64,000 bases of DNA from an uncultured Candidatus Saccharibacteria bacterium (GTDB lineage Bacteria > Patescibacteriota > Minisyncoccia > Phycocordibacterales > DATDWN01): NCBI GenBank assembly GCA_964596875.1, contig CAZQVT010000001.1, positions 107,255 through 171,254 on the forward strand, read 5' to 3'. The position numbers and the translations under genes were made by a program. A model generated the notes under the pieces. The model saw only the letters and a program-made list of their open reading frames with translations, was not told the origin of the DNA and did no database searches. Positions within the stretch are counted from its first letter, which is position 1. Every line of letters begins with the position of its first letter. Shown here one piece after another: positions 17,151 to 62,370 of this stretch.

Positions 17151-17205
17151 TATCAAAGGAATTAGAGAGCAAGTCCGACTAACATCTTCCGCTAGGGGTA
17201 GAGAT

Positions 17206-17556: not shown

Positions 17557-17624
17557 CTCCTCTCGTCGTTCTTCGTTTCGAAAAAGGCTCGAAGGTGTTC
17601 GCCACACCCTCGAGCCTTTGTTCG

Positions 17625-25017: not shown

Positions 25018-25114
25018 AGAGGTCTATTTTATCTTAAATATTTCTTTATACAAATAGCGTAAACCGCTGGAGACGAAGTTCGTTCCAGCGGGGAGAGGTT
25101 TCCCTCATGAGGGT

Positions 25115-25612
25115 TCATTCCATACATCTGCGGTGTATGGTCCGGATTGAAAAGAACCACAATAGTCCAGTCGTTAGTGTTCCCACCAGGACCGAAACCA
25201 TTTTGGGCCAGCCCAGTTTCCACCAAATGTGCACGCCGTCGTGGATGTGTGCATACGCGGGTAGGAAATCGGGCTGAGGCAGGAACCTAAACTTTCCCCA
25301 GACCTGTACTAGGTCCGGTAGTAGCCCAGCAATGAGGCAGAGTGCCAGCAGGACTCGGTAGTCGGGAAGCCTGCGTCCGACTCGATACGTAACCCATGTC
25401 GACAGAGAGATGTCGCCGAGTGCCCACCAGAAGCCAAGCGAAATCGGGCTGGTGTAGTTATCTCCAGCAACGAGCCCAGGTTCGAGATGGGGGATTAGGT
25501 CAAGTGGTAGATGTGCCACAAGGACCAGGATTGGAAGCCAGACTAGTGCCGTTCTGGGTTTGGTCTTAATCCCTAGGGCGATTGCTGGCAGTATGTGCGC
25601 GCTCGGTAGCAT
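25115..25612 (-). CDS. GC-rich polytopic membrane protein, YdjM/DUF457-like (second, foreign-composition paralog)
   Basis: About 60% GC. VAHLPLDLIPH motif. Hairpin CCGCTGGAgacgaagttcgtTCCAGCGG downstream at about 25062-25089. Confidence 0.4.
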   Translation of the reverse strand: MLPSAHILPAIALGIKTKPRTALVWLPILVLVAHLPLDLIPHLEPGLVAGDNYTSPISLGFWWALGDISLSTWVTYRVGRRLPDYRVLLALCLIAGLLPDLVQVWGKFRFLPQPDFLPAYAHIHDGVHIWWKLGWPKMVSVLVGTLTTGLLWFFSIRTIHRRCME

Positions 25613-25617
25613 GTGAC

Positions 25618-25824
25618 CTACTCGATCCTGTGGAGCTCGCGGTCCATGGCGTAGATCGTTTTTTCTTCGTCTGTTTTGACCAGGTGGACTCCACCCGAGC
25701 CGATGCAGTTTTTCGCGACCACCCTGACCCTGCGACCATCGAGGTCCTTATTTCTGCCAAGCCCGGCGACGTTCTGCCGGAAAGTGTAGTAATTACCCTG
25801 GACGATCTCGTCGTTTGTGGCCAT
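25618..25824 (-). CDS. GC-rich small protein (68 aa), possible DUF2945/Tudor-like
   Basis: RBS GGAGGG 3 nt before the ATG. ...GRRVRVVAKNCIGSGGVHLVKTDEEKTIYAMDREL. The family guess is weak. Confidence 0.35.
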   Translation of the reverse strand: MATNDEIVQGNYYTFRQNVAGLGRNKDLDGRRVRVVAKNCIGSGGVHLVKTDEEKTIYAMDRELHRIE

Positions 25825-25899
25825 GCGCCCTCCGAGAGATAGCCTATATTAAAAAGGTTGGAAATTCAAATACACAAAAAGCGCCTATGGCGCTTTTCT

Positions 25900-25974
25900 G
25901 GCTCCGGCGGTAGGGATCGAACCTACGACCAATCGCTTAACAGGCGATTGCTCTACCACTGAGCTACACCGGAA
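25900..25974 (-). tRNA. tRNA-Asn (GTT)
   Basis: Reverse complement TCCGGTGTAGCTCAGTGGTAGAGCAATCGCCTGTTAAGCGATTGGTCGTAGGTTCGATCCCTACCGCCGGAGCCA folds as a cloverleaf with anticodon GTT and CCA encoded. Confidence 0.9.
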
Positions 25975-26089
25975 TAATAAGATAATATCAAAAATAACAC
26001 AGAATGCAATAAAAAATTTTACAAAGCGAAAGGCGAGGACGGGGTCCTCGCCTGGTCGCAACGGGTCTGTTTCAGTCCGTGCGACGTGA

Positions 26090-26596
26090 TTACTTCCTTT
26101 CCCACGGCTGGCGCTCTGCCAGCCTGTTGATCACCTCGATCAAGTTCCTCCGGTTGGCGCGCTCGTTCAGCAGTCCGAGTCGGTGGATCTGCTGATACTG
26201 CCAGATGACCTCCTCGACGGGAGCGCGGTACTCCTGCTTCACGACGTAGAGGCCGAGGTCTTCCGGAATGGTCTTGTCACCTTCGATCACGCTGTGCCCG
26301 TTCAGGACGTACTTGTGGTCCAGGTCGGGGTTCGCAGCGAACCAGCGGTACTCGGTCAGTTGTTCCTCCGAGACGTTCGGGAAGTTGCGCCTGGCCGACA
26401 TGAGTTCGGCCAAGATGAGCGCGTAGTCCCTGTTGTCGAGCTTGACCTCGTCGAGAACGAGCATCGGGTACGGCTCCGTGTGGGTGCTGTTGTTCCGAAT
26501 CGTGATGATTCGGTCTCGGGTAGCCTGAGCTTCCGAGCAGCCCGACACGACGACGATAAGGAAGAGAGCGGTTGCGACACGGGTGAAAGTGTCCAT
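26090..26596 (-). CDS. GC-rich lipoprotein (signal peptide MDTFTRVATALFLIVVVSGC, lipobox VSGC), unknown function
   Basis: About 58% GC. RBS AGGAGG 3 nt before ATG 26596. The ORF track allows an upstream start at 26638. Confidence 0.5.
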   Translation of the reverse strand: MDTFTRVATALFLIVVVSGCSEAQATRDRIITIRNNSTHTEPYPMLVLDEVKLDNRDYALILAELMSARRNFPNVSEEQLTEYRWFAANPDLDHKYVLNGHSVIEGDKTIPEDLGLYVVKQEYRAPVEEVIWQYQQIHRLGLLNERANRRNLIEVINRLAERQPWERK

Positions 26597-26733
26597 ATGC
26601 CTCCTAGGCAGTGGGTTGTCCATATATAATAGTATCATAAATAAGTAATATTGTCAAATATAAATATGTATTGTGCCGTAGTAAACTATGTTAAAATTAT
26701 TCCATTAATATTAATCATTTTTAATTCAAACAT

Positions 26734-34379: not shown

Positions 34380-35474
34380 ATGACTGTAATAATTTTTTTA
34401 ATCATACTGGCGATACTTGTATTTGTTCATGAACTAGGGCATTTTTTGGTGGCAAAAAAGTCAGGTATTCGTGTGGACGAGTTTGCTATTGGTTTTCCTC
34501 CTAAACTTTTTGCAAAAAAGTGGGGGAGCACTTTATATACACTAAACGTTATTCCTTTCGGAGGTTTCGTAAAAATTTTTGGTGAAGATGCTCATAGTGG
34601 GGAAATAAGTGAGGAAAACAAAAGTGTAAGTTTTGTTTACAAACCACGATATATCCAGGCTGCTGTTTTGGTAGCAGGAGTAACTTTCAATATTATTTTT
34701 GCCTGGTTACTTATTGCGGTTACTTTGTTTATGGGGAGCGTGAGTCCTTTGCCACATGACACTATGGGCGAGTTTAATGACGCAAAACTCCTTGTGACAG
34801 AAGTTTTGGTGGACTCTCCTGCAAGTAAAGCGGGTATTTTGCCAGGGGACACTATTGTTTCTATTTCAAACGGAAAACAGACTGCGACAGAAAAGATTTT
34901 TCCAGAAGTTGCCCAAAAAATAATTTCAGAAAGTAAATCGGATATAACAATAAAACTAGAATCAGAGAAAAAAGAGGTTAGGGAACTTAGTGTGACACCT
35001 ACAGAAAACCTTATTGCTGGGAAAAAAGTTGTTGGTGTTTCTATGGAGTGGGTTGGCACAGTAAAATATTCTGCATGGGCATCTCTCACACAAGGAGCAA
35101 AATCTACTTGGTACTTGCTTCGGGAAACTGCAGTGGGACTAGCAAAGTTTTTGTGGCAAACAGTTACATTTCATTCTGACTTTTCACAGGTTACTGGTCC
35201 TGTTGGTATTGCAAAGGTTGTAAAGGAGGCGAACGACCTTGGTTTCAAATACCTACTAACTATTATGGCGATTATTTCTATAAACTTGGCAGTAATAAAC
35301 CTTGTTCCATTTCCCGCTCTTGATGGAGGTAGACTACTTTTTGTTTTTATTGAGGCGGTGATTAGGCGACCACTAAACCCGAGCGTTGTTAAATGGTCAA
35401 ACCTAATCGGTTTTGCACTACTTATGATTTTGATGGTTGCAGTGACTTCGCATGACATCCTGAAACTGTTTTAG
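34380..35474 (+). CDS. rseP: RIP metalloprotease RseP (site-2 protease) with PDZ domain
   Basis: HELGHFLVAKKSG HExxH in TM1. C-terminal LDGG. Confidence 0.85.
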   Translation: MTVIIFLIILAILVFVHELGHFLVAKKSGIRVDEFAIGFPPKLFAKKWGSTLYTLNVIPFGGFVKIFGEDAHSGEISEENKSVSFVYKPRYIQAAVLVAGVTFNIIFAWLLIAVTLFMGSVSPLPHDTMGEFNDAKLLVTEVLVDSPASKAGILPGDTIVSISNGKQTATEKIFPEVAQKIISESKSDITIKLESEKKEVRELSVTPTENLIAGKKVVGVSMEWVGTVKYSAWASLTQGAKSTWYLLRETAVGLAKFLWQTVTFHSDFSQVTGPVGIAKVVKEANDLGFKYLLTIMAIISINLAVINLVPFPALDGGRLLFVFIEAVIRRPLNPSVVKWSNLIGFALLMILMVAVTSHDILKLF

Positions 35475-35505
35475 ACTTTTTTCTTAAACCATGTTATAAA
35501 TACCT

Positions 35506-35721
35506 CTGGACGCGGAAGTGAACCACTCGTTTCAGCCGCACGAGTGTCACGCCCACTTTTGCGGTTAGAAGGGGTTTAGCCGGCCTCTTCGGCCCTCGCG
35601 AGCTGTTCTTTCCGCGTCTACTTGTAATGTTGGACTGCTTTCTGCGCCGCACGCCACCCCACGCAGTCAGATACGACGCCGCCACCTTCGGCCACCCCTC
35701 ACCAGGGTGGCCCTTTTTTTT
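35506..35721 (+). ncRNA. GC-rich structured leader or small RNA between rseP and proS, with its own promoter and intrinsic terminator
   Basis: Promoter TTAGAC-17-TTATAA (35471-35499). Long-range stem GACGCGGAA (35520-35528) / TTCCGCGTC (35607-35615). Internal hairpins. Terminator GGCCACCCctcaccaGGGTGGCC plus T8 (35690-35721), 34 nt before the proS ATG. Confidence 0.45.
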
Positions 35722-35755
35722 GCTCAAAATATTTTTTTGCTGTAGTATTGTCTTT

Positions 35756-37000
35756 ATGAAACAAACACAACTTTTTACAAAAACACGCAAGGAGGCACCA
35801 GCAGATGAGGCTTCAAAAAACGCCCAACTTTTAATACGCGGAGGTTATGTCCACAAAGAACTCGCTGGCGTTTACTCGTATTTACCTTTAGGTCTTAGAA
35901 CACTAAATAAGATTGTTGCAGTAATTCGTGATGAAATGAACAAGATAGGTGGTCAGGAGTTGCTTATGTCTGCACTTCAAGATAAAGAACTTTGGTCACG
36001 AACAGACAGATGGGACGATGCAAAAGTAGACAACTGGTTTAAAACAGAACTTAAAAGTGGTGGAGAAACTGGTCTTGGTATTACACATGAAGAACCACTA
36101 ACTCGTATCATGAGTGAGCATGTTTCGTCTTATAGAGATTTACCGAAACTTGCTTATCAGTTTCAAAACAAGTTTAGAAATGAACTTAGAGCAAAGTCGG
36201 GTATTATGCGAGGAAAGGAGTTTATGATGAAAGACATGTATTCTTTCTCTAGAGATTATGATGCTCACAATATGGATTATGACAAAATACGTGGTGCTTA
36301 TATTAAAATCTTTGAACGCCTAGGTCTTGGTGATAAAACATATGTAACATACGCAGATGGGGGAATCTTTGCAGATTTTTCTGAGGAATTTCAAACTCTA
36401 ACAGAATCAGGTGAAGATATTGTATATGTACACGAGGGTAAAAAAATTGCTGTAAACAAAGAGGTATATACGGACGAAAGTCTTGCAAAACTCGGTGTGT
36501 CAAAGGATGAGTTGGTTGAAAGAAAGGCTGTAGAAGTCGGTAATATTTTTCATCTTGGTACAAGATTTTCTGATGCGATCGGTTTGAAATACAAAGACGA
36601 GGACGGTAGTGAAAAATCTGTTGTGATGGGTAGTTATGGAATCGGTCCAACTAGAGTTATGGGTACAATCGTCGAAGTTTTATCGGATGAAAAAGGAATA
36701 GTTTGGCCAAAAGAAGTCGCACCGTTTGCTATACACCTTGTTCGCCTAGGTGTAAATGATGCAACAGTAAAATATGCTGATGACTTGTATGAAAAACTAA
36801 AACAAAATGGCGTAGAAGTTCTTTACGACGATAGAGACTTGCGACCAGGAGAAAAGTTTGCCGACTCTGACCTTATTGGTATACCTGTTCGTTTTGTTGT
36901 AAGTGACAAAACTGTCGCCGAAGACAAAGTTGAAGTAAAAATGCGAACAGAATCAGATTCAAAACTTGTGAGTGTAGATGAGGCCTTGAAATTAATTTAA
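35756..37000 (+). CDS. proS: prolyl-tRNA synthetase
   Basis: MKQTQLFTKTRKEAPADEASKNAQLLIRGGYVHK start and class II motifs. The track start 35627 is rejected because it reads through the terminator. Confidence 0.85.
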   Translation: MKQTQLFTKTRKEAPADEASKNAQLLIRGGYVHKELAGVYSYLPLGLRTLNKIVAVIRDEMNKIGGQELLMSALQDKELWSRTDRWDDAKVDNWFKTELKSGGETGLGITHEEPLTRIMSEHVSSYRDLPKLAYQFQNKFRNELRAKSGIMRGKEFMMKDMYSFSRDYDAHNMDYDKIRGAYIKIFERLGLGDKTYVTYADGGIFADFSEEFQTLTESGEDIVYVHEGKKIAVNKEVYTDESLAKLGVSKDELVERKAVEVGNIFHLGTRFSDAIGLKYKDEDGSEKSVVMGSYGIGPTRVMGTIVEVLSDEKGIVWPKEVAPFAIHLVRLGVNDATVKYADDLYEKLKQNGVEVLYDDRDLRPGEKFADSDLIGIPVRFVVSDKTVAEDKVEVKMRTESDSKLVSVDEALKLI

Positions 37001-41125: not shown

Positions 41126-41584
41126 ATGAAAGAAAAAGAATATCTGACAAAAGAAAAATTCGACGAATTTACAGCCGAACTAGCCGAACTAAAAGGCAAG
41201 AGAAGAAAAGAGGTTGCTGAGTCTTTGGAGTATGCAAAATCTCTAGGGGATTTGGCTGAAAATGCAGAATACCATGAGGCAAGAGATGCTCAGGCTACTA
41301 TTGAAGACAGAATTGCAAGACTAGAGGAGTTGCTAAAACATGCACACATTGTTTCTGGAAACAGTACTGATGCAGTTTCTGTTGGTTCAAAAATAACTGT
41401 AGAAAAGGATGGTAAAAAGTTTGAGTACAGTATCGTCGGTTCAGAAGAGGCAGATGTTATTTCAAACAAGATCTCTATGAAGTCTCCGTTCGGACAAGCG
41501 ATCCTTGGAAAGAAAAAAGGTGACAGTTTTACTTTTAAAGCGCCTTCAGGTGAGATTACATACAAGATTGTTTCTATTCAATAA
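41126..41584 (+). CDS. greA: transcription elongation factor GreA
   Basis: GDLAENAEYHEARDAQA coiled-coil tip and C-terminal FKBP-like domain. Confidence 0.9.
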   Translation: MKEKEYLTKEKFDEFTAELAELKGKRRKEVAESLEYAKSLGDLAENAEYHEARDAQATIEDRIARLEELLKHAHIVSGNSTDAVSVGSKITVEKDGKKFEYSIVGSEEADVISNKISMKSPFGQAILGKKKGDSFTFKAPSGEITYKIVSIQ

Positions 41585-41645
41585 GGAATCAAAAAGGACC
41601 CTTCAGGGTCTTTTTTGATTTAGGAAATAGTGCTATATTTACTAT

Positions 41646-43109
41646 ATGGCAGGACTAGACGAAATACGTGAAGGCAGACTTCACAAACTAAATATATTAA
41701 AAGAAAGAGGCATTAACCCTTTTCCAGCACAAGTACCTAGGGATTTTACTATTAAGTTTCTAAAGGATAATTTTGACGCTCAAAGTACAGCCGGCGCAGA
41801 TATTTCTGTGGCGGGTAGAGTAATGGCTTTGCGTGGGCAAGGAGCAATACTTTTTGCTGTTCTTTTTGATGGAACAGAAAAGGTTCAGGCTATTGTGAAA
41901 AAAGATACTTTGGGTGAAGACGCTTTTGGACTTTTTAGAGACGCTGTAGATGTTGGGGATTTTATTTCAGTAACAGGTGCCGCCATTCTTTCTAAAACAG
42001 GGGAGCAGAGTATAGACACAAAAGTTTGGACAATGGCAACTAAAACATTGTTGCCAATGCCGGAAAAATGGCATGGTCTACAAGATATAGACGAAAGATA
42101 TCGAAAGCGATACTTGGATTTCCTTATGAACGACGAGTTGCGAGACCTCATGGTAAAGAAAGCAAAGTTTTGGGATGCTACTAGAACTTTTATGAAGCAA
42201 AATGACTTTCTCGAAGTTGAAACACCTACTATTGAAACAACAACCGGTGGTGCAGAAGCAAACCCATTTAAAACTCATCATGACGACTATGACATGGATG
42301 TTTATTTCCGTATTTCAGTAGGAGAGTTGTGGCAAAAGAGACTTATGTCTGCAGGTTTCCCTAGAACTTTTGAAGTCGGAAGAGTTTACAGAAACGAGGG
42401 TTCTAGTCCAGACCATACCCAAGAGTTTACCAACATGGAGTTTTACGCTTCATTTATGACATATGAAGAGGGCATAAACTTTACGGAGGAACTTATAAAA
42501 TACGTAGCCCAAGAGTCTTTTGGTAAAACAGAGTTTTCAACTAGAGGACATACATTTAATCTTGCTGGAACATGGGACAGAAAGTCATACGTTGAAATAG
42601 TAAAAGAAAAAACTGGTGTAGATGTTATTTCTGCTACAAGTGACGAAATGAAAGATAAACTAGATGAACTAAAAGTAAAATACGAAGGAGATAATAAGGA
42701 AAGACTTACAGATACACTTTGGAAATACTGCCGAAAACAAATCTCTGGTCCTGTATGGATAACAAATGTTCCAAAAATCGTTTCTCCTTTGGCGAAAGCA
42801 AATGTTGAAAACAACGATCTGACACTACGTGTGCAACTAGTTTTGGCAGGCGCCGAAGTCACAAACGGTTTTGCCGAACTAAACGACCCAATAGATCAGA
42901 AAGAAAGATTTGATCTGCAGAAAAAACTTCTAGAAGGTGGAGACAAGGAAGCAATGATGTCAGATGACGAGTTTGTAGAAATGCTAGAACACGGCATGCC
43001 TCCGACTTTTGGTTTTGGAATGGGAGGGGATAGAATTTTCTCATTTTTTGCGGATAAACCGCTACGAGAACTTCAGATGTTTCCTTTAATGAGACCGAAG
43101 GTCGAATAA
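41646..43109 (+). CDS. lysS: lysyl-tRNA synthetase (class II)
   Basis: OB-fold N-domain, FLEVETP, RNEG and GGDR class II motifs. Confidence 0.9.
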   Translation: MAGLDEIREGRLHKLNILKERGINPFPAQVPRDFTIKFLKDNFDAQSTAGADISVAGRVMALRGQGAILFAVLFDGTEKVQAIVKKDTLGEDAFGLFRDAVDVGDFISVTGAAILSKTGEQSIDTKVWTMATKTLLPMPEKWHGLQDIDERYRKRYLDFLMNDELRDLMVKKAKFWDATRTFMKQNDFLEVETPTIETTTGGAEANPFKTHHDDYDMDVYFRISVGELWQKRLMSAGFPRTFEVGRVYRNEGSSPDHTQEFTNMEFYASFMTYEEGINFTEELIKYVAQESFGKTEFSTRGHTFNLAGTWDRKSYVEIVKEKTGVDVISATSDEMKDKLDELKVKYEGDNKERLTDTLWKYCRKQISGPVWITNVPKIVSPLAKANVENNDLTLRVQLVLAGAEVTNGFAELNDPIDQKERFDLQKKLLEGGDKEAMMSDDEFVEMLEHGMPPTFGFGMGGDRIFSFFADKPLRELQMFPLMRPKVE

Positions 43110-43123
43110 ATCTCTTACTCACA

Positions 43124-43262
43124 TATCTTTTCTCCAGACCGCTCGCTTTTCCTGCGAAAAACTCACTTTGTCCTCAGTCGCAATTTGTCAATGAACCGAG
43201 ATTACTCGGACTTTGACAAAACCATGCTTGCTCCCTGCGGAGTCTTGCGAAAAGATCTGTCC
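43124..43262 (+). repeat. TIR element family 2, copy D (divergent)
   Basis: GTCCTCAGTCGCAATTTGTCAATG..CTTTGACAAAACCATGCTTGCTCCCTGCGGAGTC. The inner stem TTTGTCAA/TTGACAAA covaries with GTCGTCAAG/CTTGACGAC in the other copies. Confidence 0.5.
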
Positions 43263-43317
43263 GGCGATATTTATTTATAATATTTACAAAATAATTTTAG
43301 TGTGGTATCGTCAGAGG

Positions 43318-43600
43318 TGGAAAGGGGTGGCCTACGGAAAGCCCAGCCTCGGCTGGGTCTACCGGTGTCCTCCTCCTAAGGGTCATCCCTTTCCGTTTAT
43401 CGGGGTGCAGGGACTGCCTGGTGGGTTCCCAAAGAATGCCTCAGGGATGTTGTGTTCCTAGGGGCTCATTTGGTCCTTGCACCTCGATATCGAGGCACGG
43501 GAGTAGTCGCGTCGGGTTGGTTTCACAAAGTCGCGTATAACTACCAACCCGATTGGCTCCCGTGCCTCGAAAACTCAATGCACCCTCGGTGCATTTTTTC
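43318..43600 (+). ncRNA. GC-rich structured RNA (about 280 nt) of unknown class, with own promoter and terminator
   Basis: Promoter TTTACA-17-TATCGT (43283-43311). Stems GGCACGGGAG/CTCCCGTGCC, GGGTTGGT/ACCAACCC and CCAGCctcgGCTGG, plus alternative GGAAAGGG/CCCTTTCC pairings. Terminator ATGCACCCTCGGTGCAT plus T6 (43578-43599). No credible ORF. Confidence 0.45.
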
Positions 43601-43625
43601 ATATAATTTTTCAAGAATTCAAATT

Positions 43626-43654
43626 TGACAGTGACAATAAATAGTGTTATTATA
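43626..43654 (+). promoter_or_regulatory. sigma70-like promoter TTGACA-17-TATTAT for the amidase gene
   Basis: TTGACAgtgacaataaatagtgtTATTAT, then RBS AAGGAGG 4 nt before ATG 43695. Confidence 0.55.
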
Positions 43655-43694
43655 AACAAAGACTGACTTACATCCTGTAGGTCAAGGAGGCTCC

Positions 43695-44453
43695 ATGAGA
43701 TTGCTGATGCTTGTTCTTTTGGTCGCGTTGGCAGTCTTGCCTACCGAGACCAAAGAACAGAGAAAGTCACGACCCGCCTTGAGTGGTTGGGTTGTGGTTC
43801 TGGATCCAGGCCACGGTGGCGTTGATCCCGGTTCGTCCGGGACATTCAATGGCAAACGTGTGGTCGAGGATGAATACGTCTACGACGTAGCTCTTCGTGC
43901 CAAAAGGATTATCCGCTCAATGGGCGGACTATCCTTCCTGACGATCCAGGACAAAGTCGGCGAAAGATCATTGCCGGCACAATCAGTGTTTCCGGACGTT
44001 CGTTCGGAAACCTACACAGGAACATCTGTGGCTGTCCGTGCTGGTTCCGATGGTCTTAATCGTCGGCTTGCTTATGGCAACAGTATTAGCCGTAAGTATC
44101 CAAAGCATAGACAGGCTTGGATATCCATTCACTTCGATGTCCTCGGCAAAAACCGAGTCATCGAGGGGGTTCGGATCATCAAGGCAGAGTCGAGCAACAG
44201 GCTGGCGGATGCTCTCGAAGCGTCCTTTGCAAAGTACGACCGTTTGCGCGACTACGCGCCGGTTGTACAAAGCGGAGACCCGCAGTTTGGGATGCGCAAC
44301 CTGTTCATCCTGAATGGCAACAACAGGATTCGTGAAAAGGTGCTTGTTGAGTTGGGAAACTTCAACAACACAACAGACGTGTGGAGGGTTCGTAACTCCG
44401 TCACGCGTGAAGCGTACGCAAGAGCGATCGCAGAAGCCTTGCTACGCTGGTAA
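43695..44453 (+). CDS. N-acetylmuramoyl-L-alanine amidase (Amidase_3 family), secreted, GC-rich
   Basis: Signal peptide. VVLDPGHGGVDPG, ISIHFD and VLVELGNFNN (LVExGFxSN-like) motifs. About 58% GC. Confidence 0.75.
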   Translation: MRLLMLVLLVALAVLPTETKEQRKSRPALSGWVVVLDPGHGGVDPGSSGTFNGKRVVEDEYVYDVALRAKRIIRSMGGLSFLTIQDKVGERSLPAQSVFPDVRSETYTGTSVAVRAGSDGLNRRLAYGNSISRKYPKHRQAWISIHFDVLGKNRVIEGVRIIKAESSNRLADALEASFAKYDRLRDYAPVVQSGDPQFGMRNLFILNGNNRIREKVLVELGNFNNTTDVWRVRNSVTREAYARAIAEALLRW

Positions 44454-44461
44454 GGCGGGGA

Positions 44462-44541
44462 AATCCCGCACAGGTCGTCCGAAGGACGGCCTTTCTCGTT
44501 TATAAATTTTTACCAACTTGGACATCCGATGTCCAAGTTGG
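44462..44541. terminator. hairpin cluster: GCGGGGAAATCCCGC, GGTCGTCCgaaGGACGGCC plus TTTCTCGTTT, and a perfect 29-bp palindrome CCAACTTGGACATCCGATGTCCAAGTTGG (44513-44541)
   Basis: Seen directly. Lies between the amidase and mraZ. Confidence 0.55.
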
Positions 44542-44599
44542 ACTTTACATGAAACTCAAAATGGGTTTTATTTTTTTATCCACAGGATTTTTGGGACAA

Positions 44600-44660
44600 A
44601 GTGGTATGCGGGTGGGAAGGAGTGGTATATAATAACTATCAAGTGGGAAGAAGTGGGATA
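44600..44660 (+). promoter_or_regulatory. mraZ promoter region with GTGGG direct repeats (MraZ-box-like operator)
   Basis: -10 TATAAT at 44628-44633. GTGGG at 44612, 44643 and 44653, the last two 10 nt apart within AGTGGGAAG repeats. MraZ is known to bind GTGGG direct repeats. Confidence 0.5.
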
Positions 44661-44680
44661 TCGAATAATTTTTTACAATC

Positions 44681-45119: not shown

Positions 45120-46016
45120 ATGATCCATAAAACAGTTCTTTTACATGAAAGTATAGATGGTTTAGATATCAAAAAAGGTGATATCTATGTAGATGGAACT
45201 CTTGGAGGAGGAGGACACTTTGAAGAAGTTGCAAAAAGGTTTGGCAATGACGTTGTCATGATCGGCATTGACCTTGATCCTGATGCAATAACAAGAACAA
45301 AAGAAAGACTTTCTAAATATTCTTTAAAGAATGTTCACTACGTACAAGATAGTTTCAAAAATATAGGTACAATCCTAGAAAATCTAAATATTTCTAAAGT
45401 AGACAAGATTTTGCTAGACATAGGACTTTCTTCAAACCAGTTTGAAGAGTCAGGTAGAGGTTTTTCTTTTCAGAAAAACGAACCACTACTTATGACCTTT
45501 AAAAAAGACATAACTGAAGAAGACTTAACAGCAAAAGAGATTGTAAACACTTGGGAGTTGGAAAATCTTTCTGCAATCCTCCGAGGTTACGGCGAAGAAG
45601 AGTTTGCTTGGAAAATAGCCAAAGCAATAGTTGCCAGACGAGAAGAAAAGCCGATAGAAACAACCTTTGACCTTGTAGAGATAATAAAAATAGCTACACC
45701 AAAGTGGTACCACACACGCAGAATCCATCCAGCAACAAAAACTTTTCAGGCACTACGTATCACAGTAAACAACGAGATCGAAAACTTGAAGCAGGCTCTC
45801 CGAGATGGTTTCGAGAGGCTAAACTCAAAAGGCAGAATGGCAGTCATTTCATTTCATAGTCTGGAAGATAGAGAGGTTAAAAATTTTTTTAGGGATAAAG
45901 ACGATTTAGGGCAGGGGACAAGGATAAACAAAAAACCAATCCTGCCGACTAAAGAAGAGATACAGGAAAACCCACGCAGTCGCAGTAGTAAACTAAGAAT
46001 TTTTGAAAAAATATGA
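45120..46016 (+). CDS. rsmH: 16S rRNA (cytosine1402-N4)-methyltransferase
   Basis: VDGTLGGGGH SAM motif. Synteny after mraZ. Confidence 0.9.
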   Translation: MIHKTVLLHESIDGLDIKKGDIYVDGTLGGGGHFEEVAKRFGNDVVMIGIDLDPDAITRTKERLSKYSLKNVHYVQDSFKNIGTILENLNISKVDKILLDIGLSSNQFEESGRGFSFQKNEPLLMTFKKDITEEDLTAKEIVNTWELENLSAILRGYGEEEFAWKIAKAIVARREEKPIETTFDLVEIIKIATPKWYHTRRIHPATKTFQALRITVNNEIENLKQALRDGFERLNSKGRMAVISFHSLEDREVKNFFRDKDDLGQGTRINKKPILPTKEEIQENPRSRSSKLRIFEKI

Positions 46017-49516: not shown

Positions 49517-49619
49517 CTATACAGTAATTCCTATTCGTTATGAGTAGGTGGCTCGCAAGAGCAACGAGGCAGTATTTCCCACCTCATCAAAGGGAAATGT
49601 TCGTCACAAGGAGGCCGTT

Positions 49620-49991
49620 ATGGCCACCACGCAGAGTCATGGAATCACTTCGGGAACTCTGGAGTTGCAGAGACGTCGGATTGTCGCGGGCCCATCCCGC
49701 GAATGTCTGTTCGACTCTCTTCGGCTCGGGACCTTCCGTAACAGGATGGCCATTGCCTTCACGGTCGCGCCATCGCACCTGACTGGCAGAAACCTGGCAG
49801 ATGGTCGGCGGTTCGTTCCCGGCAACCTGATGTTCCACGCCACGGTTGTCATGATCCGTCCGGAAGACGGAAGTGGCTATAACTGGCTGTTCGAACTCAG
49901 CGACGAAAATCGGACGCTCGGTTCAGACAAGTTGCGTGGGTACATGAACACGAACCTTCGCACGGGCTGGGTCGAGCCGATCTTCGACTAG
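49620..49991 (+). CDS. GC-rich hypothetical protein (123 aa)
   Basis: RBS AAGGAGG 5 nt before the ATG. About 60% GC. Terminator CAGGCGCACttccttcgggatGTGCGCCTG plus T9 at 50007-50046. Confidence 0.45.
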   Translation: MATTQSHGITSGTLELQRRRIVAGPSRECLFDSLRLGTFRNRMAIAFTVAPSHLTGRNLADGRRFVPGNLMFHATVVMIRPEDGSGYNWLFELSDENRTLGSDKLRGYMNTNLRTGWVEPIFD

Positions 49992-50126
49992 ACCGCCTCC
50001 GCTTCACAGGCGCACTTCCTTCGGGATGTGCGCCTGGTTTTTTTGTAGGGGAATTATTTTGAGATGCCGTGGGATAGAGAGTTCAAGTTTTTTTACTTAG
50101 TTAATTTACTGTGCTAGCATTTGTAA

Positions 50127-50798: not shown

Positions 50799-50870
50799 TG
50801 ACCCTATGGGGAGTCGAACCCCAATTGCAGCCTTGAGAAGGCCGCGTCCTAACCATTAGACGATAGGGCC
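50799..50870 (-). tRNA. tRNA-Glu (CTC)
   Basis: Reverse complement GGCCCTATCGTCTAATGGTTAGGACGCGGCCTTCTCAAGGCTGCAATTGGGGTTCGACTCCCCATAGGGTCA folds as a cloverleaf. Anticodon loop TTCTCAA. CCA not encoded. Confidence 0.8.
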
Positions 50871-51067
50871 AATGTAAATTCTAAAAATCTTGAGAAAACT
50901 TCGTCCTAGTCACGTATCAAAGTCTGCTGACTTTGTACGCGACCCCACCTCACGCCGACGCGTTCCGGTCGTTCGTTTGGGTCCCAGCCCAAACTTCACC
51001 GCCATACGATAAGGCCATGAGGAACAAGGTGATAATAACATTTATAGAGAAACTTTCAAACGTTGTT

Positions 51068-51097
51068 TTGACAGTGATGAAAAATGTGTGCTATAGT
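51068..51097 (+). promoter_or_regulatory. sigma70 promoter TTGACA-18-TATAGT
   Basis: Upstream of a structured leader (CAACCTACC..GGTAGGTTG) and ORF 51161. Confidence 0.5.
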
Positions 51098-51160
51098 TTT
51101 GAGTGGACAACCTACCGCATGTGCAGTCGCACAAGGCTTCGGGTAGGTTGCGAGGGGATT

Positions 51161-51286
51161 ATGCTCGAGAGTTTCAGACTCGTTTTTGAGGGCGTGGTTC
51201 AGTATCTTCCACCCCCTCAGGTTCTCATCGGATGTCTCATCGCGGGTGAAATGGTTCGTGACCTGCATGACCATTTCGTACGGTAA
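51161..51286 (+). CDS. GC-rich micro-ORF (41 aa, MLESFRLVFEGVVQYLPPPQVLIGCLIAGEMVRDLHDHFVR)
   Basis: RBS GAGGGG 3 nt before the ATG. Terminator CCCCGTG..CACGGGGTTTTT at 51311-51353. Confidence 0.35.
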   Translation: MLESFRLVFEGVVQYLPPPQVLIGCLIAGEMVRDLHDHFVR

Positions 51287-51359
51287 CCTCCGCACGAACA
51301 ACAACATCGGCCCCGTGGGTGTGTGCAATGCGCGCACGCTCACGGGGTTTTTCGTATAC

Positions 51360-51388
51360 TTGACAGAATAGGGTTATATGGTGTATAA
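51360..51388 (+). promoter_or_regulatory. consensus sigma70 promoter TTGACA-17-TATAAT
   Basis: TTGACAgaatagggttatatggtgTATAAT. Followed by a 5' UTR with hairpins CAGTGGTAA..TTACCACTG and CTTGCatatcGCAAG. Confidence 0.6.
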
Positions 51389-51451
51389 TAATGGCAGGAC
51401 AGTGGTAAACTCTTGCATATCGCAAGGTGTTACCACTGCCGGGAGAACACC

Positions 51452-51559
51452 ATGTTCACACCCTTCGAACTCACGTTGACCCTCACGATCTTCGTCGGTC
51501 TCGGCGTCGTCCAGGCGCTCGCCAGGCGCGACCTCGTTCTGTCCATCCGGAAGCGCTAG
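51452..51559 (+). CDS. 35-aa hydrophobic peptide (MFTPFELTLTLTIFVGLGVVQALARRDLVLSIRKR), type I toxin-like
   Basis: Single TM helix plus basic C-terminus. Structured 5' UTR, RBS GGGAG, and terminator GAGCCTCTACGC..GCGTAGAGGCTC plus T-run at 51580-51620. Confidence 0.4.
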   Translation: MFTPFELTLTLTIFVGLGVVQALARRDLVLSIRKR

Positions 51560-51665
51560 ACGCACCTCCGGCCCACATCGAGCCTCTACGCACAACATCG
51601 CGTAGAGGCTCATCTTTTTTATATGATATTTAAAAAAAACAAATAAAATGATATATTAGGAAAAT

Positions 51666-55493: not shown

Positions 55494-55543
55494 ATTATGG
55501 GCCGATCGTGGCGTTCGACCAGCCCATAAACCGCAGGTTTGCA

Positions 55544-55750
55544 TTAGGCACCTCGAGCTTTCTTCAGAAGTTCGAGTCGGAGTCCTCTCGCGATTTCTCT
55601 CACATCCATCCTGATCCTTTCGTTCTCCTCGGTGTCGAGGGAGTTTCTGCGGAACGCTTCCTCGAAGATTTCACCGAGCAGGTTTGGGTTCGCTCCGCGT
55701 CTTATGAACTCTCTGTTCACTTCGCGAGCGATTTTTTCGGCGAGACTCAT
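55544..55750 (-). CDS. GC-rich small helical protein (68 aa)
   Basis: RBS AAGGAGG 5 nt before ATG 55750. About 60% GC. Second gene of a two-gene minus-strand cassette. Confidence 0.4.
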   Translation of the reverse strand: MSLAEKIAREVNREFIRRGANPNLLGEIFEEAFRRNSLDTEENERIRMDVREIARGLRLELLKKARGA

Positions 55751-55842
55751 AGGCACCTCCTTTCCGACATTATTATCGCACAATTTTTTGCATTGAAATA
55801 GGGGCGCGCCTTTCGACGTGCCCCCAGTTCGGCGAGGAGGAA

Positions 55843-55959
55843 CTAGTCCTTGTCGCCGTTCGGTAGCCCCCGGTAGTCGAGTCGGGGATCGGTCTTGCGA
55901 CCTTTCCACTTCACTGCAAACGAGGACTTCTTCACCTTACCTTCATTTTTCTTGGCCAT
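55843..55959 (-). CDS. GC-rich Lys-rich micro-protein (38 aa, MAKKNEGKVKKSSFAVKWKGRKTDPRLDYRGLPNGDKD)
   Basis: RBS AAAGGAGG 8 nt upstream. The segment ...KGRKTDPRLDYRGL has faint bL33-like character. Confidence 0.35.
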   Translation of the reverse strand: MAKKNEGKVKKSSFAVKWKGRKTDPRLDYRGLPNGDKD

Positions 55960-55983
55960 GATGTTGGCCTCCTTTCATTTATT

Positions 55984-57611: not shown

Positions 57612-57929
57612 ATGGAATTCGCGATAATCAACACTGGTGGAAAGCAATACAAAGTCTCTAAGGGAGACACTCTTAAAATTGAGAAAATCAAAGGTGATTT
57701 CAAGGTAGGAGACAAGATCGTTTTCGATAAAGTTATGCTGGTAGAAAGTGGTAAGGACACTACTATTGGTACTCCATATATTGCAAAGGCATCTGTTGAA
57801 GCAACTCTAAAAGAAATCGGTAAAAACAAAACTGTAGAAGTTGTAAAATACAAGCAAAAGAGTAGATACTACAAACGAAACGGACACAGACAACCATACT
57901 TTAAGGTTGAAATTGCAGGAATAAAATAA
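57612..57929 (+). CDS. rplU: 50S ribosomal protein L21
   Basis: MEFAIINTGGKQYKVSKGDTLKIEKI. 105 aa. Confidence 0.9.
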   Translation: MEFAIINTGGKQYKVSKGDTLKIEKIKGDFKVGDKIVFDKVMLVESGKDTTIGTPYIAKASVEATLKEIGKNKTVEVVKYKQKSRYYKRNGHRQPYFKVEIAGIK

Positions 57930-57936
57930 ATAATAA

Positions 57937-57965
57937 AATGACCTCCGAAAGGAGGTTGTTTTTGT
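57937..57965. terminator. bidirectional terminator AAAATGACCTCCGAAAGGAGGTTGTTTTTG
   Basis: Perfect hairpin with A-run 5' and T-run 3'. Confidence 0.75.
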
Positions 57966-58540
57966 ATAAGGAAAAGGGCTAGGATCGAATGGTCACGTGG
58001 GGTGTGCGTAGAGACCAAGGATACCTAGCCCTTCTGCCGACTTGGGTCGGCTTCAGTTGAAACAGTATAAAGAGCGAGACCGGTAAGACCGATCTGGAGG
58101 GAAAACACGTTCCTCCACGTTGATGCGTGTATTTCACGCACCCCCGAAATCGAGCCTCCACATACTGGCCGCCAACCTATCGCCCTCACTAGGGTCGGGT
58201 TGGACATCATCCAGTCTCGCGTATTAACCAACATTTGTAATGCAGGCAAATACTCGAGACCGGCTTCTGTATGGAACTATAGCACAAATAAAAAATATTT
58301 CAACCATTAGAAAACGGTCGCCAGGCGACCGTCGTAGGTGGTTCCGTAGGAGTGTCGCAGTGTACAAACCGAAAGACAGTTCGGTTTGAATCCTTTTCTG
58401 TGCCACCAGAATGGTATATATCCTCGACGCAACATTCAAACCGTTACAGACTGGGTCGGGAGTCCCCAAGTGTGGAATCGGTGAAGGGCATCTAGAGAAT
58501 CTACACACGGCAGACCTAACTGAACCATTTCACATACTAT
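57966..58540. ncRNA. GC-rich structured region without credible ORF, candidate ncRNA(s); class and strand unresolved
   Basis: About 57% GC between rplU and recR. Stems GGGCTAGG..CCTAGCCC, GGAGGgaaaacacgttCCTCC, TGCGTGtatttcaCGCA, GTCGCCagGCGAC and AAACCGAAagacagTTCGGTTT. Internal minus-strand promoter-like TTGAAA-16-TATAGT (about 58270-58305). Confidence 0.35.
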
Positions 58541-58544
58541 ATTA

Positions 58545-59156
58545 TTAGTTTCTGTTTTTCAAGGCGTTTTTTATAGTGTCGCTGTCAGAGTATTCCAGTT
58601 CGGTTCCGGTAGAAAGTCCTCTGCCAAGAGTTGAGATTTTAATATTATTTTTAGTTGTAACATCTTTTAGAAATTCAGTTAGGTAGTTTACAGTGTTTTC
58701 TCCTTCAGGGTTGTAGTTTAATGCTAAAATAATTTCATTTAGTCCTGTTGAGACTTTTGTTTGTATGGTTTGAAGTAAATCTTTTTGTCTTATTCTATTT
58801 TCAGGATTTTTTTCAAGTATTGGGACAGTGCCACCTAGTATAAAATAATAGCCGTTATAAAACTTTGTTTTTTCTATATTTTCATAATCCACATCATGGG
58901 AAACTATCATAAGTTGTTTTGGGTCCCGGTTAGTGTCTCTACAAACTGGACAAAGAGTATTTGTGCTGTTTGGAAAAAACCTAAAACAACTTGTGCACGA
59001 ATGTACTGTGGATCGAACCTCTTTTATTAACCCAGCAAGGTCGGTTGCATACCCCGGGTTTTTGTTCAGTAAAAAGTACACAAAACGTTTTGCTTGTCGT
59101 GGTCCGATTCCAGGAAACTCCTTAAAGAGTTCTATGAGTCGTTCAGTGTTGTTCAT
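58545..59156 (-). CDS. recR: recombination protein RecR
   Basis: Zn finger CTSCFRF..CPVCRD and Toprim domain. 203 aa. Confidence 0.9.
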   Translation of the reverse strand: MNNTERLIELFKEFPGIGPRQAKRFVYFLLNKNPGYATDLAGLIKEVRSTVHSCTSCFRFFPNSTNTLCPVCRDTNRDPKQLMIVSHDVDYENIEKTKFYNGYYFILGGTVPILEKNPENRIRQKDLLQTIQTKVSTGLNEIILALNYNPEGENTVNYLTEFLKDVTTKNNIKISTLGRGLSTGTELEYSDSDTIKNALKNRN

Positions 59157-61968: not shown

Positions 61969-62104
61969 TGATTAAAATTTAATTATAATTTGTTAACTGT
62001 ATAATTATAACAAAATAAATTTGATTGTTTGTGAAGTTGGGGATACGAACAAGGCCACACATGCGTGTGGCCTGTACTACGTTTCGCCCACGTAGTTGGG
62101 GTTG

Positions 62105-62293
62105 TTACTCGGCCCTGTTTCTGGCCTCGATGAGCGCGCGTCCTCTTTCAGCCCGCGCCTTGTGGCTGGGGTCTGATCTGTTGCACTCGCACACTCCGTC
62201 GGCGCAGTCCATGTCGTGGGCTGCTTCCATGTCTCCAGCGAGTTTACGGACGAGGGTCTTGTCGGTCGACAGTGGTCGCAGCTGCGGGTCCAT
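62105..62293 (-). CDS. GC-rich small protein (62 aa) with DCADGVCEC Cys motif
   Basis: Minus-strand consensus promoter TTGACT-17-TACAAT (62314-62342). RBS GGAGGC 6 nt before the ATG. Downstream hairpin GGCCACACgcatGTGTGGCC. Confidence 0.45.
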   Translation of the reverse strand: MDPQLRPLSTDKTLVRKLAGDMEAAHDMDCADGVCECNRSDPSHKARAERGRALIEARNRAE

Positions 62294-62370
62294 AGCAAAG
62301 CCTCCAATAGAGAATTGTATCAAGCAACAGTTATTTAGTCAAGTCAAGTATAAATAATATTGTGGAAACA

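What the first reader, a model, noticed from the sequence alone, without database searches (positions are those of the whole stretch)
43283..43600. Independent GC-rich structured RNA gene (about 280 nt) upstream of a foreign-composition cell-wall amidase
It has its own promoter (TTTACA-17-TATCGT), no ORF with an RBS, multiple nested long-range stems (a 10-bp GGCACGGGAG/CTCCCGTGCC enclosing GGGTTGGT/ACCAACCC), two mutually exclusive GGAAAGGG/CCCTTTCC pairings and a clean intrinsic terminator. The amidase has a separate strong promoter 30 nt further on. I could not match it to RNase P, tmRNA, SRP or 6S consensus by eye. A c-di-AMP (ydaO-type) riboswitch is known upstream of cell-wall hydrolases in Actinobacteria, but the separate amidase promoter argues for a free-standing sRNA.
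Basis: partly seen in the sequence, partly recalled or inferred. Interest (0 to 1): 0.6.

Follow-up and report, generated by a model that had tools for sequence, protein, structure and literature searches.

The report
Strain-variable tandem-hairpin small RNA gene
A roughly 285-nt non-coding RNA made of three long hairpins, with its own promoter and terminator, lies in a strain-variable gap between lysS and the cell-division operon of an uncultivated Parcubacteria (CPR) bacterium; it matches no known RNA family, does not regulate the neighbouring amidase, and its function is unknown.

Summary
Window 43283-43601 carries a promoter-like site, three consecutive long hairpins (H1 43319-43394, H2 43398-43489, H3 43490-43570) and an intrinsic terminator. 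The amidase has a separate, stronger promoter.

Rfam gives nothing credible: no ydaO, RNase P, tmRNA, SRP or 6S match.

Sister strains encoding an identical MraZ protein show that the lysS-mraZ gap is a cassette hotspot. It holds different combinations of this RNA, a TonB_C gene, the amidase and a 150-nt segment.

H2 and H3 are paralogous hairpin modules. Other strains carry one module (L008, L099) or two (L101) at the same place, behind the same extended -10 promoter and with no amidase. The module stems are kept through compensatory changes (7 of 22 pairs; 96.7% of cells paired). G.U pairs occur on the + strand only, and no ORF is conserved.

No further copy turned up in the 64-kb window, in the mraZ regions of 80 related species, or in the metagenome and viral scans.

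Verdict: a real, lineage-restricted, free-standing (or lysS-3'UTR-sharing) structured sRNA of a new family. It is not an amidase leader. Its mechanism is inferred only; a modular protein-binding or decoy RNA is the most likely. Interest is moderate.

Caveat: the amidase coding sequence is just as strongly structured (z about -11.5), so fold energy alone does not show that this is an RNA gene.

The parts
43283..43311 (+). Promoter-like site TTTACA-17-TATCGT with TGG (extended -10) just upstream of the -10. The predicted start is near 43318.
   Evidence: The same geometry (TTTACT/TTTACA, 17-nt spacer, TGn, TAGTTT) sits in front of the homologous RNAs in L008, L099 and L101.
43318..43601 (+). Predicted non-coding transcript of about 285 nt: H1, H2, H3 and the terminator.
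   Evidence: No conserved ORF. No Rfam match.
43319..43394 (+). Hairpin H1. It has a 15-bp outer stem with G.U pairs, an inner GCCCAGC/GCUGGGU hairpin, and an exposed CCUCCUCC (anti-Shine-Dalgarno-like) stretch at 43368-43375. It is unique to this strain.
   Evidence: Not recognised by the module model R2 (0.2 bits). No homologue found.
43398..43489 (+). Hairpin H2, an 'A-type' module homologous to L101 2014-2099.
   Evidence: Model R2: 59.9 bits, E 7e-11. Alignments A3 and A4. 11 G.U pairs; dG -49.5 on the + strand against -32.7 on the - strand.
43490..43572 (+). Hairpin H3, a 'B-type' module homologous to L008 3765-3841, L099 5007-5083 and L101/L015 module B. The paired stem spans 43490-43570.
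   Evidence: Models R1 and R2: 78 bits, E about 1e-15. Compensatory changes in the outer stem.
43577..43601 (+). Intrinsic terminator: an 8-bp stem, a 3-nt loop and a T6 run.
   Evidence: A terminator hairpin is at the equivalent position in L008, L099 and L101.
43256..44542 (.). Block present in this strain but absent from the L013/L016 haplotype. It holds the RNA cassette plus the amidase cassette.
   Evidence: blastn breakpoints against L013 and L016.
43108..43255 (.). Separate 150-nt segment downstream of lysS. It is shared at 92.6% with L013/L016 and absent from L008, L099 and L101. It is closed by a 19-nt inverted repeat and is not part of the RNA.
43625..43653 (+). Separate amidase promoter TTGACA-17-TATTAT (context; not part of the RNA).
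   Evidence: Homology with L001/L009/L014 starts exactly here.
43695..44453 (+). Amidase_3 gene with a signal peptide: an independent cassette (context).
   Evidence: Pfam E 7e-17. CPR-only homologues. Different neighbours in other genomes.

Best explanation
Window 43318-43601 (+) is a genuine, lineage-restricted non-coding RNA gene.

Shown:
- It is bounded by an extended -10 promoter and an intrinsic terminator.
- It consists of consecutive long hairpins. Two of them (H2, H3) belong to one paralogous module family: a UCGAGG/CCUCGA base, a roughly 16-bp outer stem, a pyrimidine-rich 5' internal loop (CUGUYUCU), a UGGGUU/ACCCA inner stem and a 3' UU bulge.
- Sister strains carry 1, 2 or 3 such hairpins at the same spot between lysS and mraZ.
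- The structure is kept by compensatory and G.U changes on the + strand.
- It is genetically independent of the amidase.

Inferred:
- It is transcribed from its own promoter. Because no terminator follows lysS, it probably also forms the 3' end of lysS read-through transcripts, as in 3'UTR-type sRNAs that have an internal promoter.
- Each module is one binding site for a protein, with the conserved asymmetric internal loop flanked by sequence-conserved stems. The RNA would then act as a stable, copy-number-variable decoy or scaffold rather than as a cis regulator.

My confidence that it is a real structured ncRNA independent of the amidase is about 0.75. My confidence in the protein-decoy mechanism specifically is about 0.25.
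For: - Promoter, terminator and second promoter are present.
- Fold z is -8.4, with the + strand 29 kcal/mol more stable than the - strand.
- Every module is more stable on the + strand, and 36 of 195 pairs are G.U.
- Homologous modules exist in L008, L099, L101 and L015, at E 1e-14 to 1e-17.
- On the model alignment, 96.7% of cells are paired, and 7 of 22 pairs show changes on both sides. None of 500 shuffles reached the observed values. Sliding the partner columns drops pairing to 27-50%.
- L008 and L099 differ only in loops.
- The promoter geometry is conserved.
- The RNA and the amidase are each present or absent independently across haplotypes.
- No ORF is conserved, and length differences between modules are not multiples of three.
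- There is no Rfam family match and no tRNA or tmRNA.
- An independent assembly is identical.
Against: - There are no expression data.
- The family is tiny: four haplotypes and seven module sequences, several of them paralogues or near-duplicates. The covariation counts are therefore not independent events, and the alignment was fitted to the model.
- Some sister strains lack the RNA altogether (L013/L016, L001/L009/L010), so it is dispensable.
- H1 has no comparative support.
- A high fold z-score is not diagnostic here. The adjacent amidase CDS scores z -11.5.
- No partner protein or conserved loop motif of a known RNA-binding protein was identified, so the mechanism rests on analogy.
Confidence: 0.6

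Rival explanations
1. It is the structured 3' UTR and terminator region of lysS: an exonuclease-blocking, transcription-insulating hairpin array between lysS and the tightly regulated dcw (mraZ) operon, with no function as a separate sRNA.
For: - No terminator was found between the lysS stop (43109) and 43577.
- In L008, L099 and L101 the element starts about 45 nt after the lysS stop.
- A second terminator-like hairpin follows in every haplotype, just ahead of the mraZ promoter.
- Other species carry different GC-rich, hairpin-rich stretches in the same gap.
- Established knowledge: REP-type 3' hairpins stabilise upstream mRNA.
Against: - An extended -10 promoter is conserved directly in front of the first hairpin in four diverged haplotypes.
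- Sequence is conserved inside the stems and the internal loop, beyond what a generic exonuclease block needs.
- In the window it lies 170 nt from lysS, behind another segment.
- Strains lacking it do without.
Confidence: 0.2
2. It is a base-pairing sRNA. The exposed CCUCCUCC stretch of H1 (43368-43375) pairs with Shine-Dalgarno regions or purine-rich mRNA sites and represses translation, for example of the amidase RBS AAGGAGG or of rsmH.
For: - In the MFE fold, CCUCCUCC lies in a largely unpaired apical region of H1.
- There is a 13-nt perfect complement to rsmH at 45206-45218.
- C/U-rich seeds are a known sRNA mechanism in Gram-positive bacteria (established knowledge).
Against: - H1 is absent from all homologues, so this cannot be the family's function.
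- The 13-nt match has E 0.22 within the window alone.
- Any CCUCC stretch matches any SD sequence.
Confidence: 0.08
3. It is a cis-regulatory leader or riboswitch of the amidase, ydaO/c-di-AMP-like or attenuator type.
For: - It lies directly upstream of a cell-wall hydrolase on the same strand.
- It ends in a terminator.
- The terminator stem shares GGUGCA/UGCACC with the H2 stem, which could allow alternative pairing.
Against: - There is no ydaO-yuaA hit even at E<=10.
- The amidase keeps its own 11/12 promoter downstream of the terminator, conserved in strains without the RNA.
- The RNA occurs without the amidase, directly before mraZ (L008, L099, L101). The amidase occurs without the RNA in at least 9 other loci.
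Confidence: 0.03
4. It is selfish palindromic DNA (MITE, REP/BIME or integron attC-like) that marks the cassette boundaries of the hotspot, rather than an RNA.
For: - Hairpin units occur in tandem, their copy number varies between strains, and the locus is a cassette hotspot.
- There is a perfect junction palindrome CCTCGATATCGAGG.
Against: - No other copy was found in 64 kb, in about 100 related loci (0.7 Mb), or in the metagenome and viral pattern scans.
- Every non-Watson-Crick pair in the predicted MFE stems is G.U on the + strand, and only 5 of 150 cells in the module alignment are unpaired.
- No transposase, integrase or RAYT is present in the window.
- There are no GTTRRRY/RYYYAAC core sites (reading).
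- It has a promoter and a terminator.
Confidence: 0.05
5. It is a small-protein gene or a decayed remnant of a GC-rich coding cassette.
For: - A 45-codon GTG frame follows GAGG at 43327-43461.
- Neighbouring GC-rich cassettes encode small ORFs, and their mRNAs can be highly structured.
Against: - The frame is not kept in L101, L099 or L008.
- No start-codon-led ORF is shared.
- Substitutions are compensatory in stems or fall in loops.
- There is no similarity to the TonB_C gene that occupies the slot in L001.
Confidence: 0.04

Closest known systems
Multi-hairpin protein-sequestering sRNAs (CsrB/RsmZ type; more loosely 6S RNA)
   Same: An independent promoter and intrinsic terminator. It is built from repeated stem-loop units whose number varies between relatives. 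It has no coding capacity and is dispensable in some strains.
   Different: There are no GGA loop motifs and no CsrA context. The units are 75-95 nt long with 16-bp stems rather than short hairpins. No Rfam match. No partner protein is known.
3'UTR-derived sRNAs with an internal promoter that share the mRNA terminator (e.g. MicL, DapZ in enterobacteria)
   Same: It sits immediately 3' of a housekeeping gene (lysS) with no intervening terminator. It has its own promoter near the stop codon and shares the terminator.
   Different: Those sRNAs act through a short single-stranded seed and Hfq. This RNA is almost fully double-stranded and modular, and no seed is conserved.
REP/BIME and other intergenic palindromic repeat clusters
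   Same: Tandem imperfect palindromes downstream of a gene, with copy-number variation between strains and a possible mRNA-stabilising effect.
   Different: REPs are 35-40 nt, present in tens to hundreds of copies and linked to RAYT transposases. Here there is a single locus, 75-95-nt units, strand-specific G.U pairs, and a promoter.
Type III toxin-antitoxin antitoxin RNAs (ToxI/CptI)
   Same: The layout promoter, tandem RNA repeats, terminator, downstream gene.
   Different: ToxI repeats are 34-45 nt and near-identical, and are followed by an endoribonuclease toxin. Here the units are long and divergent, and the downstream gene varies (amidase or mraZ).
ydaO-yuaA (c-di-AMP) riboswitch upstream of cell-wall hydrolases
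   Same: A GC-rich structured RNA on the same strand, upstream of a peptidoglycan hydrolase gene.
   Different: No covariance-model match. A complete terminator plus a separate promoter lie in between. The RNA and the amidase assort independently.
Phage 'morons' (self-contained promoter-gene-terminator inserts of deviant composition)
   Same: The RNA, the amidase and TonB_C are each self-contained, GC-rich transcription units inserted between genes that are adjacent in related strains.
   Different: This is a core chromosomal locus of a CPR bacterium, not a prophage, and one of the units is non-coding.

Membership tests
ydaO-yuaA c-di-AMP riboswitch (RF00379) | Match to the family covariance model (pseudo-two-fold aptamer) | tested here: not met
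   No hit at gathering score over the whole window. No hit at E<=10 with permissive filters on 43100-43750.
ydaO-yuaA c-di-AMP riboswitch (RF00379) | Acts in cis: the aptamer and expression platform form the 5' leader of the regulated gene | tested here: not met
   A terminator and then a separate 11/12 promoter precede the amidase. The RNA is found without the amidase and the amidase without the RNA.
Housekeeping RNAs (RNase P, tmRNA, SRP RNA, 6S RNA) | Match to Rfam models, or ARAGORN for tmRNA | tested here: not met
   The only SRP-clan hit is an 18-bit partial Plant_SRP match (gathering score 105), and there are no others. ARAGORN finds nothing. The RNA is absent from sister strains, which is incompatible with an essential RNA.
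REP/BIME or MITE repeat elements | Many dispersed copies per genome | tested here: not met
   Models R1 and R2 find no other copy in the 64-kb window (filters off) or in 0.7 Mb of related loci. The whole genome was not available.
REP/BIME or MITE repeat elements | Associated transposase (RAYT/IS) or target-site duplications | tested here: not met
   No transposase domain in the window's ORFs. TA flanks H2 on both sides, but H3 and its homologues lack any duplication.
Integron attC sites | R''/R' core sites (RYYYAAC...GTTRRRY) and a nearby intI integrase | tested here: not met
   The module ends are TCGAGG...CCTCGA. No tyrosine recombinase in the window.
Type III TA antitoxin RNA | Near-identical short tandem repeats followed by a ToxN/AbiQ-type endoribonuclease gene | tested here: not met
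   The units are 75-95 nt, and the six-module alignment has 64% mean column identity. The downstream genes are Amidase_3 or MraZ.
CsrB/RsmZ-type sponge RNAs | Repeated GGA motifs in hairpin loops | tested here: not met
   The loops and internal loops of the modules (CUGUYUCU, GNCGCAA, UU) carry no recurrent GGA.
Generic bacterial sRNA gene (independent non-coding transcription unit) | Own promoter, intrinsic terminator, no conserved ORF, and structure conserved by covariation | tested here: met
   Sequence-based only.
Generic bacterial sRNA gene (independent non-coding transcription unit) | A discrete transcript is detected | not testable with these tools
   No transcriptome data are accessible. 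The organism is uncultivated.

The most novel reading that the evidence does not exclude
The lysS-mraZ gap of these Parcubacteria may be a combinatorial array of self-contained, GC-rich, hyper-structured transcription units that strains exchange freely. The units seen so far are the tandem-hairpin RNA, the amidase, TonB_C and other non-coding units. On this reading the tandem-hairpin RNA is a new class of modular RNA in which module number tunes the titration of a protein or nuclease, for example in host interaction or phage defence. The extreme secondary structure shared by the ncRNA and the amidase mRNA would then be a selected property of this accessory gene pool, not a sign of foreign origin.
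Probability: 0.12. Interest if true: 0.7.

Novelty: new member of a known kind. Interest (0 to 1): 0.4.

Why it matters
Almost nothing is known about regulatory RNAs in the Candidate Phyla Radiation. These bacteria have tiny genomes with few protein regulators and cannot be grown alone.

This locus offers a sequence-defined, covariation-supported sRNA family with an unusual property: 1-3 tandem hairpin modules that vary between near-identical strains. It sits next to the cell-division operon, in a hotspot that also swaps cell-envelope genes.

Two practical points follow. In such genomes, GC-rich, strongly folding islands are not automatically ncRNAs, because a coding gene here folds just as well. 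And a 'leader of the next gene' reading can be tested quickly by comparing sister-strain haplotypes.

The narrow distribution and unknown function limit its immediate importance.

Tried and rejected
- **Rfam.** Gathering-score scan of the whole window, plus E<=10 scans of 43100-43750 and of two other GC-rich islands. Only chance-level hits (miRNA precursors, partial Plant_SRP at 18 bits).
- **Phage collection.** blastn found only a 23-nt AT-rich chance match. The viral contig pattern scan found 0 hits, and the amidase in viral contigs gave one 33% partial hit.
- **Amidase homologue contexts.** I looked for the RNA upstream of amidase homologues (L001-L007). It is absent and those gaps are short.
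- **TonB_C remnant.** I tested whether the slot is a decayed copy of the TonB_C gene found there in L001. There is no similarity.
- **Metagenome pattern scan.** It retrieved only the contig already known as L008.
- **Related species.** Models R1 and R2 over 80 species-level mraZ loci gave no hits beyond the sister strains.
- **H1 as a third module.** Not supported (0.2 bits).
- **Target prediction.** RNAduplex against 116 5' regions gave uninterpretable long-loop duplexes. The best antisense match is 13 nt at E 0.22.
- **Sliding 160-nt z-score scan of the window.** Too noisy with 12 shuffles to rank islands. The first attempt timed out.
- **Literature.** Two searches found nothing on CPR sRNAs of this kind.
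- **Exact-sequence look-ups.** The window's amidase and GreA are not on record. The last LysRS look-up (L106) ended 34 nt after lysS.

Full report
**What is in the sequence**

The window is AT-rich (39.6% GC). Its core genes are rpoB/C, dnaG, rpoD, hisS, truB, def/fmt, priA, mreBCD, proS, lysS, mraZ-rsmH-PBP, dnaB and cysS. It contains no transposase, integrase or reverse transcriptase. The closest relatives are Parcubacteria/Paceibacteria MAGs (Zambryskibacteria, Taylorbacteria, 'Minisyncoccia').

Between the lysS stop (43109) and the amidase start (43695) the scans find three signals:
- a promoter-like site TTTACA-17-TATCGT (43283-43311) with a TG extended -10;
- an intrinsic terminator (43577-43595 plus T6);
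- a second, stronger promoter TTGACA-17-TATTAT (43625-43653).

The stretch in between is 55-59% GC. It folds into three consecutive long hairpins followed by the terminator: H1 43319-43394, H2 43398-43489 and H3 43490-43570. The fold energy is -153.3 kcal/mol against -104.6 +/- 5.8 for shuffles (z -8.4). The reverse strand reaches only -124.2.

An independent Logan assembly (L098) is 100% identical over 41137-43919. The exception is the 'two mutually exclusive' GGAAAGGG pairings: there is only one CCCTTTCC.

**Known families**

- Rfam 15 finds only two tRNAs in the whole window at gathering score.
- With permissive filters on 43100-43750, nothing is better than chance-level miRNA-precursor hits and an 18-bit partial Plant_SRP match. 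There is no ydaO, RNase P, tmRNA, 6S or bacterial SRP.
- ARAGORN finds nothing.

**Is it tied to the amidase?**

The amidase is a small CPR-only family. Its homologues sit in unrelated neighbourhoods with 78-200-nt upstream gaps and no similarity to the RNA.

The MraZ protein of the window is identical on 17 contigs of sister strains. Together with the LysRS look-ups, these contigs show that the lysS-mraZ gap is a cassette hotspot:

| Haplotype | Content between lysS and mraZ |
|---|---|
| L013, L016 | a 150-nt segment, equivalent to window 43108-43255, plus about 105 nt of unrelated sequence |
| L001, L009 | TonB_C gene, then amidase |
| L010 | TonB_C gene only |
| L012, L014 | amidase directly before mraZ (contigs cut off upstream) |
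| L008, L099 | one hairpin plus terminator |
| L101 (same strain as L015, L102, L103) | two hairpins plus terminator |
| window | 150-nt segment, three hairpins plus terminator, amidase |

Homology between the window and L001 resumes exactly at the amidase -35 box. Relative to L013, the window-specific block is 43256-44542. The RNA and the amidase therefore assort independently, each with its own promoter and terminator. This rules out a leader or riboswitch reading.

**A module family**

H3 is homologous to the single hairpin of L008 and L099 and to the second hairpin of L101/L015. H2 is homologous to the first hairpin of L101. The models score them as follows:
- R1, built from H3-type sequences: 78-96 bits;
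- R2, built from six modules: 60-86 bits, E 1e-11 to 1e-17.

All modules share the same plan:
- a UCGAGG/CCUCGA base;
- an outer stem of about 16 bp;
- a pyrimidine-rich 5' internal loop;
- a UGGGUU/ACCCA inner stem;
- a 3' UU bulge.

On the model-based alignment:
- 96.7% of cells form standard pairs;
- 7 of 22 pairs show changes on both sides;
- none of 500 shuffles reaches the observed values;
- sliding the partner columns drops pairing to 27-50%.

Every module is 2-18 kcal/mol more stable on the + strand, and 36 of 195 pairs are G.U. Strand-specific wobble pairs of this kind are expected of an RNA read from the + strand rather than of a symmetric DNA palindrome. L008 and L099 differ only in loop positions.

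No start-codon-led ORF is shared between the versions. The window's 45-codon GTG frame is not kept.

The promoter geometry recurs in front of the first hairpin in all four haplotypes, although the surrounding sequence differs. That geometry is TTTAC[A/T], a 17-nt spacer ending in TGn, then TAnnnT.

H1 has the same general shape, but the module model does not recognise it and no homologue was found.

**Distribution**

No further copy of the module was found in:
- the 64-kb window, searched with filters off;
- about 100 loci (0.7 Mb), including the mraZ +/-4 kb regions of 80 species-level relatives;
- a metagenome pattern scan, which returned only the L008 contig;
- viral contigs.

Several other species do carry different GC-rich, hairpin-rich, apparently non-coding stretches in the same gap. 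In at least L020 and L025 these follow a TTGACA promoter and end in a terminator. The family is therefore real but very narrow, confined to one locus, and dispensable.

**How it probably works**

Shown: the anatomy, the conservation of structure, and the independence from the amidase.

Inferred:
1. It is transcribed from its own promoter. No terminator follows lysS, so the element probably also ends lysS read-through transcripts, as in 3'UTR-type sRNAs with an internal promoter.
2. Sequence is conserved inside the stems and in the asymmetric internal loop, and module number varies. This suggests that each module is a binding site for a protein. The RNA would then be a stable decoy or scaffold with copy-number-dependent capacity.

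I rate 'real ncRNA, not an amidase leader' at about 0.75 and the decoy mechanism at about 0.25.

The main rival (0.2) is a purely structural role as a lysS 3' end stabiliser or insulator in front of the dcw operon. Other rivals:
- A base-pairing role through the CCUCCUCC stretch of H1 is possible for this strain only.
- Repeat-element, attC-like and coding readings each failed their tests (see the membership table).

**An important caveat found on the way**

The amidase coding sequence is itself extraordinarily structured on its sense strand.

| Sequence | Sense-strand z |
|---|---|
| Window amidase (-339 vs -256 kcal/mol) | -11.5 |
| L001 amidase | -8.3 |
| L005 amidase | -7.4 |
| L002 amidase | -4.8 |
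| L006 amidase | -2.6 |
| Core genes and TonB_C | about +1 to -2 |

The window's amidase fold, evaluated on the L001 sequence, gives -226.7 kcal/mol. The same substitutions placed at random within codon-position classes give -182.7 +/- 13. The real substitutions are thus less disruptive than random ones.

Two consequences follow. Fold energy alone cannot identify ncRNAs in these GC-rich islands; the case for the RNA rests on covariation, strand asymmetry, promoter conservation and the lack of an ORF. And the amidase's 'foreign composition' may reflect selection for mRNA structure. The family is 52-59% GC in CPR genomes of about 41% GC.

**Novelty and score**

This is a new, lineage-restricted family within a known kind (bacterial structured sRNA genes). 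Its unusual features are the tandem-module architecture and the strain-level copy-number variation. Interest is 0.4: it is real and uncatalogued, in a group where regulatory RNAs are essentially unexplored. However, it is narrow in distribution, dispensable, and has no demonstrated function.

Noticed in passing
window 43695-44453 (also L001 1708-2466, L005 3001-3762, L002 3001-3747): The amidase coding sequence is hyper-structured on its sense strand. z is -11.5 here and -8.3, -7.4 and -4.8 in homologues, while neighbouring core genes are near 0. Real substitutions between the window and L001 disrupt the fold less than randomly placed equivalents. The family is GC-rich (52-59%) in CPR genomes of about 41% GC, which points to selection on mRNA structure.
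   Followed up: partly
window 7526-9050, 12801-13825, 16676-17625, 25051-26625, 35451-35750, 49526-50100, 50826-51650, 55501-55975, 57951-58475, 62026-62350: About 15 GC-rich islands (50-72% GC) are scattered through a 39.6% GC core chromosome. In the islands read in full, strong TTGACA/TATAAT-type promoters and intrinsic terminators flank the units. The longer ORFs have almost no Pfam match, apart from one weak EamA hit. This looks like a pool of moron-like accessory cassettes.
   Followed up: partly
window 35505-35725 (+), 51100-51362 (+), 57962-58300 (-), 58305-58535: These further GC-rich stretches have no long ORF and, at least for 35505-35725 and 51100-51362, a recognisable promoter and terminator. 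Fold z is -4.4, -5.4, -8.0 and -3.5. Where tested (35440-35770 and 57920-58570) there is no Rfam match even at E<=1. They may be additional unknown sRNAs.
   Followed up: partly
window 51453-51557 (+), 55750-55957 (-), 62110-62296 (-): Small GC-rich ORFs, each with a GGAGG RBS and its own promoter and terminator. One is a 34-aa hydrophobic peptide (MFTPFELTLTLTIFVGLGVVQALARRDLVLSIRKR) that resembles a type I toxin or small membrane protein.
   Followed up: no
window 43110-44680 compared with L001, L008-L016, L099, L101: The lysS-mraZ gap is a combinatorial hotspot. Strains encoding an identical MraZ protein carry different subsets of four units in a fixed order: the 150-nt segment, TonB_C, the hairpin RNA and the amidase. 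lysS itself differs by 9-15% at the protein level between these strains.
   Followed up: yes
window 44513-44541; L002 about 2906-2962; L006 about 2911-2969: A perfect 14-bp-arm palindrome CCAACTTGGACATC/GATGTCCAAGTTGG lies downstream of the amidase and is kept in L001, L012 and L014. Amidase homologues in L002 and L006 have instead a long inverted repeat with CTTGG...GTCCAAG upstream of the gene. It may be an operator or recombination site of the amidase cassette.
   Followed up: no
window 43108-43255: A 150-nt segment after lysS is closed by a 19-nt inverted repeat (43121-43139 / 43242-43260). It is 92.6% identical in L013/L016, which is more conserved than the adjacent lysS 3' end, and it is absent from other haplotypes. 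It may be another small structured element.
   Followed up: no
window 43577-43595 vs 43402-43408/43478-43484; L101 terminator vs module A: The terminator stem shares the 6-mers GGUGCA/UGCACC with the H2 outer stem. In L101 the terminator shares GGUGCG with module A. This could be chance, a partial duplication, or a potential alternative pairing.
   Followed up: no
window 43365-43377 vs 45206-45218: There is 13-nt perfect complementarity between the exposed GUGUCCUCCUCCU of H1 and the rsmH coding region (GGGGHFEE motif codons). E is 0.22 within the window, so it may be chance.
   Followed up: no
window 44600-44665: A run of GTGGGAAG/AGTGGTA boxes with about 10-nt spacing surrounds the mraZ promoter and is conserved in all haplotypes. 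It fits the known MraZ operator repeats.
   Followed up: no
L020 3300-3640, L025 3230-3560: Related species have, in the same lysS-mraZ gap, different 350-450-nt GC-rich stretches behind TTGACA promoters, with very long G.U-containing hairpins and terminators. These are analogous to, but not homologous with, the RNA studied here.
   Followed up: partly
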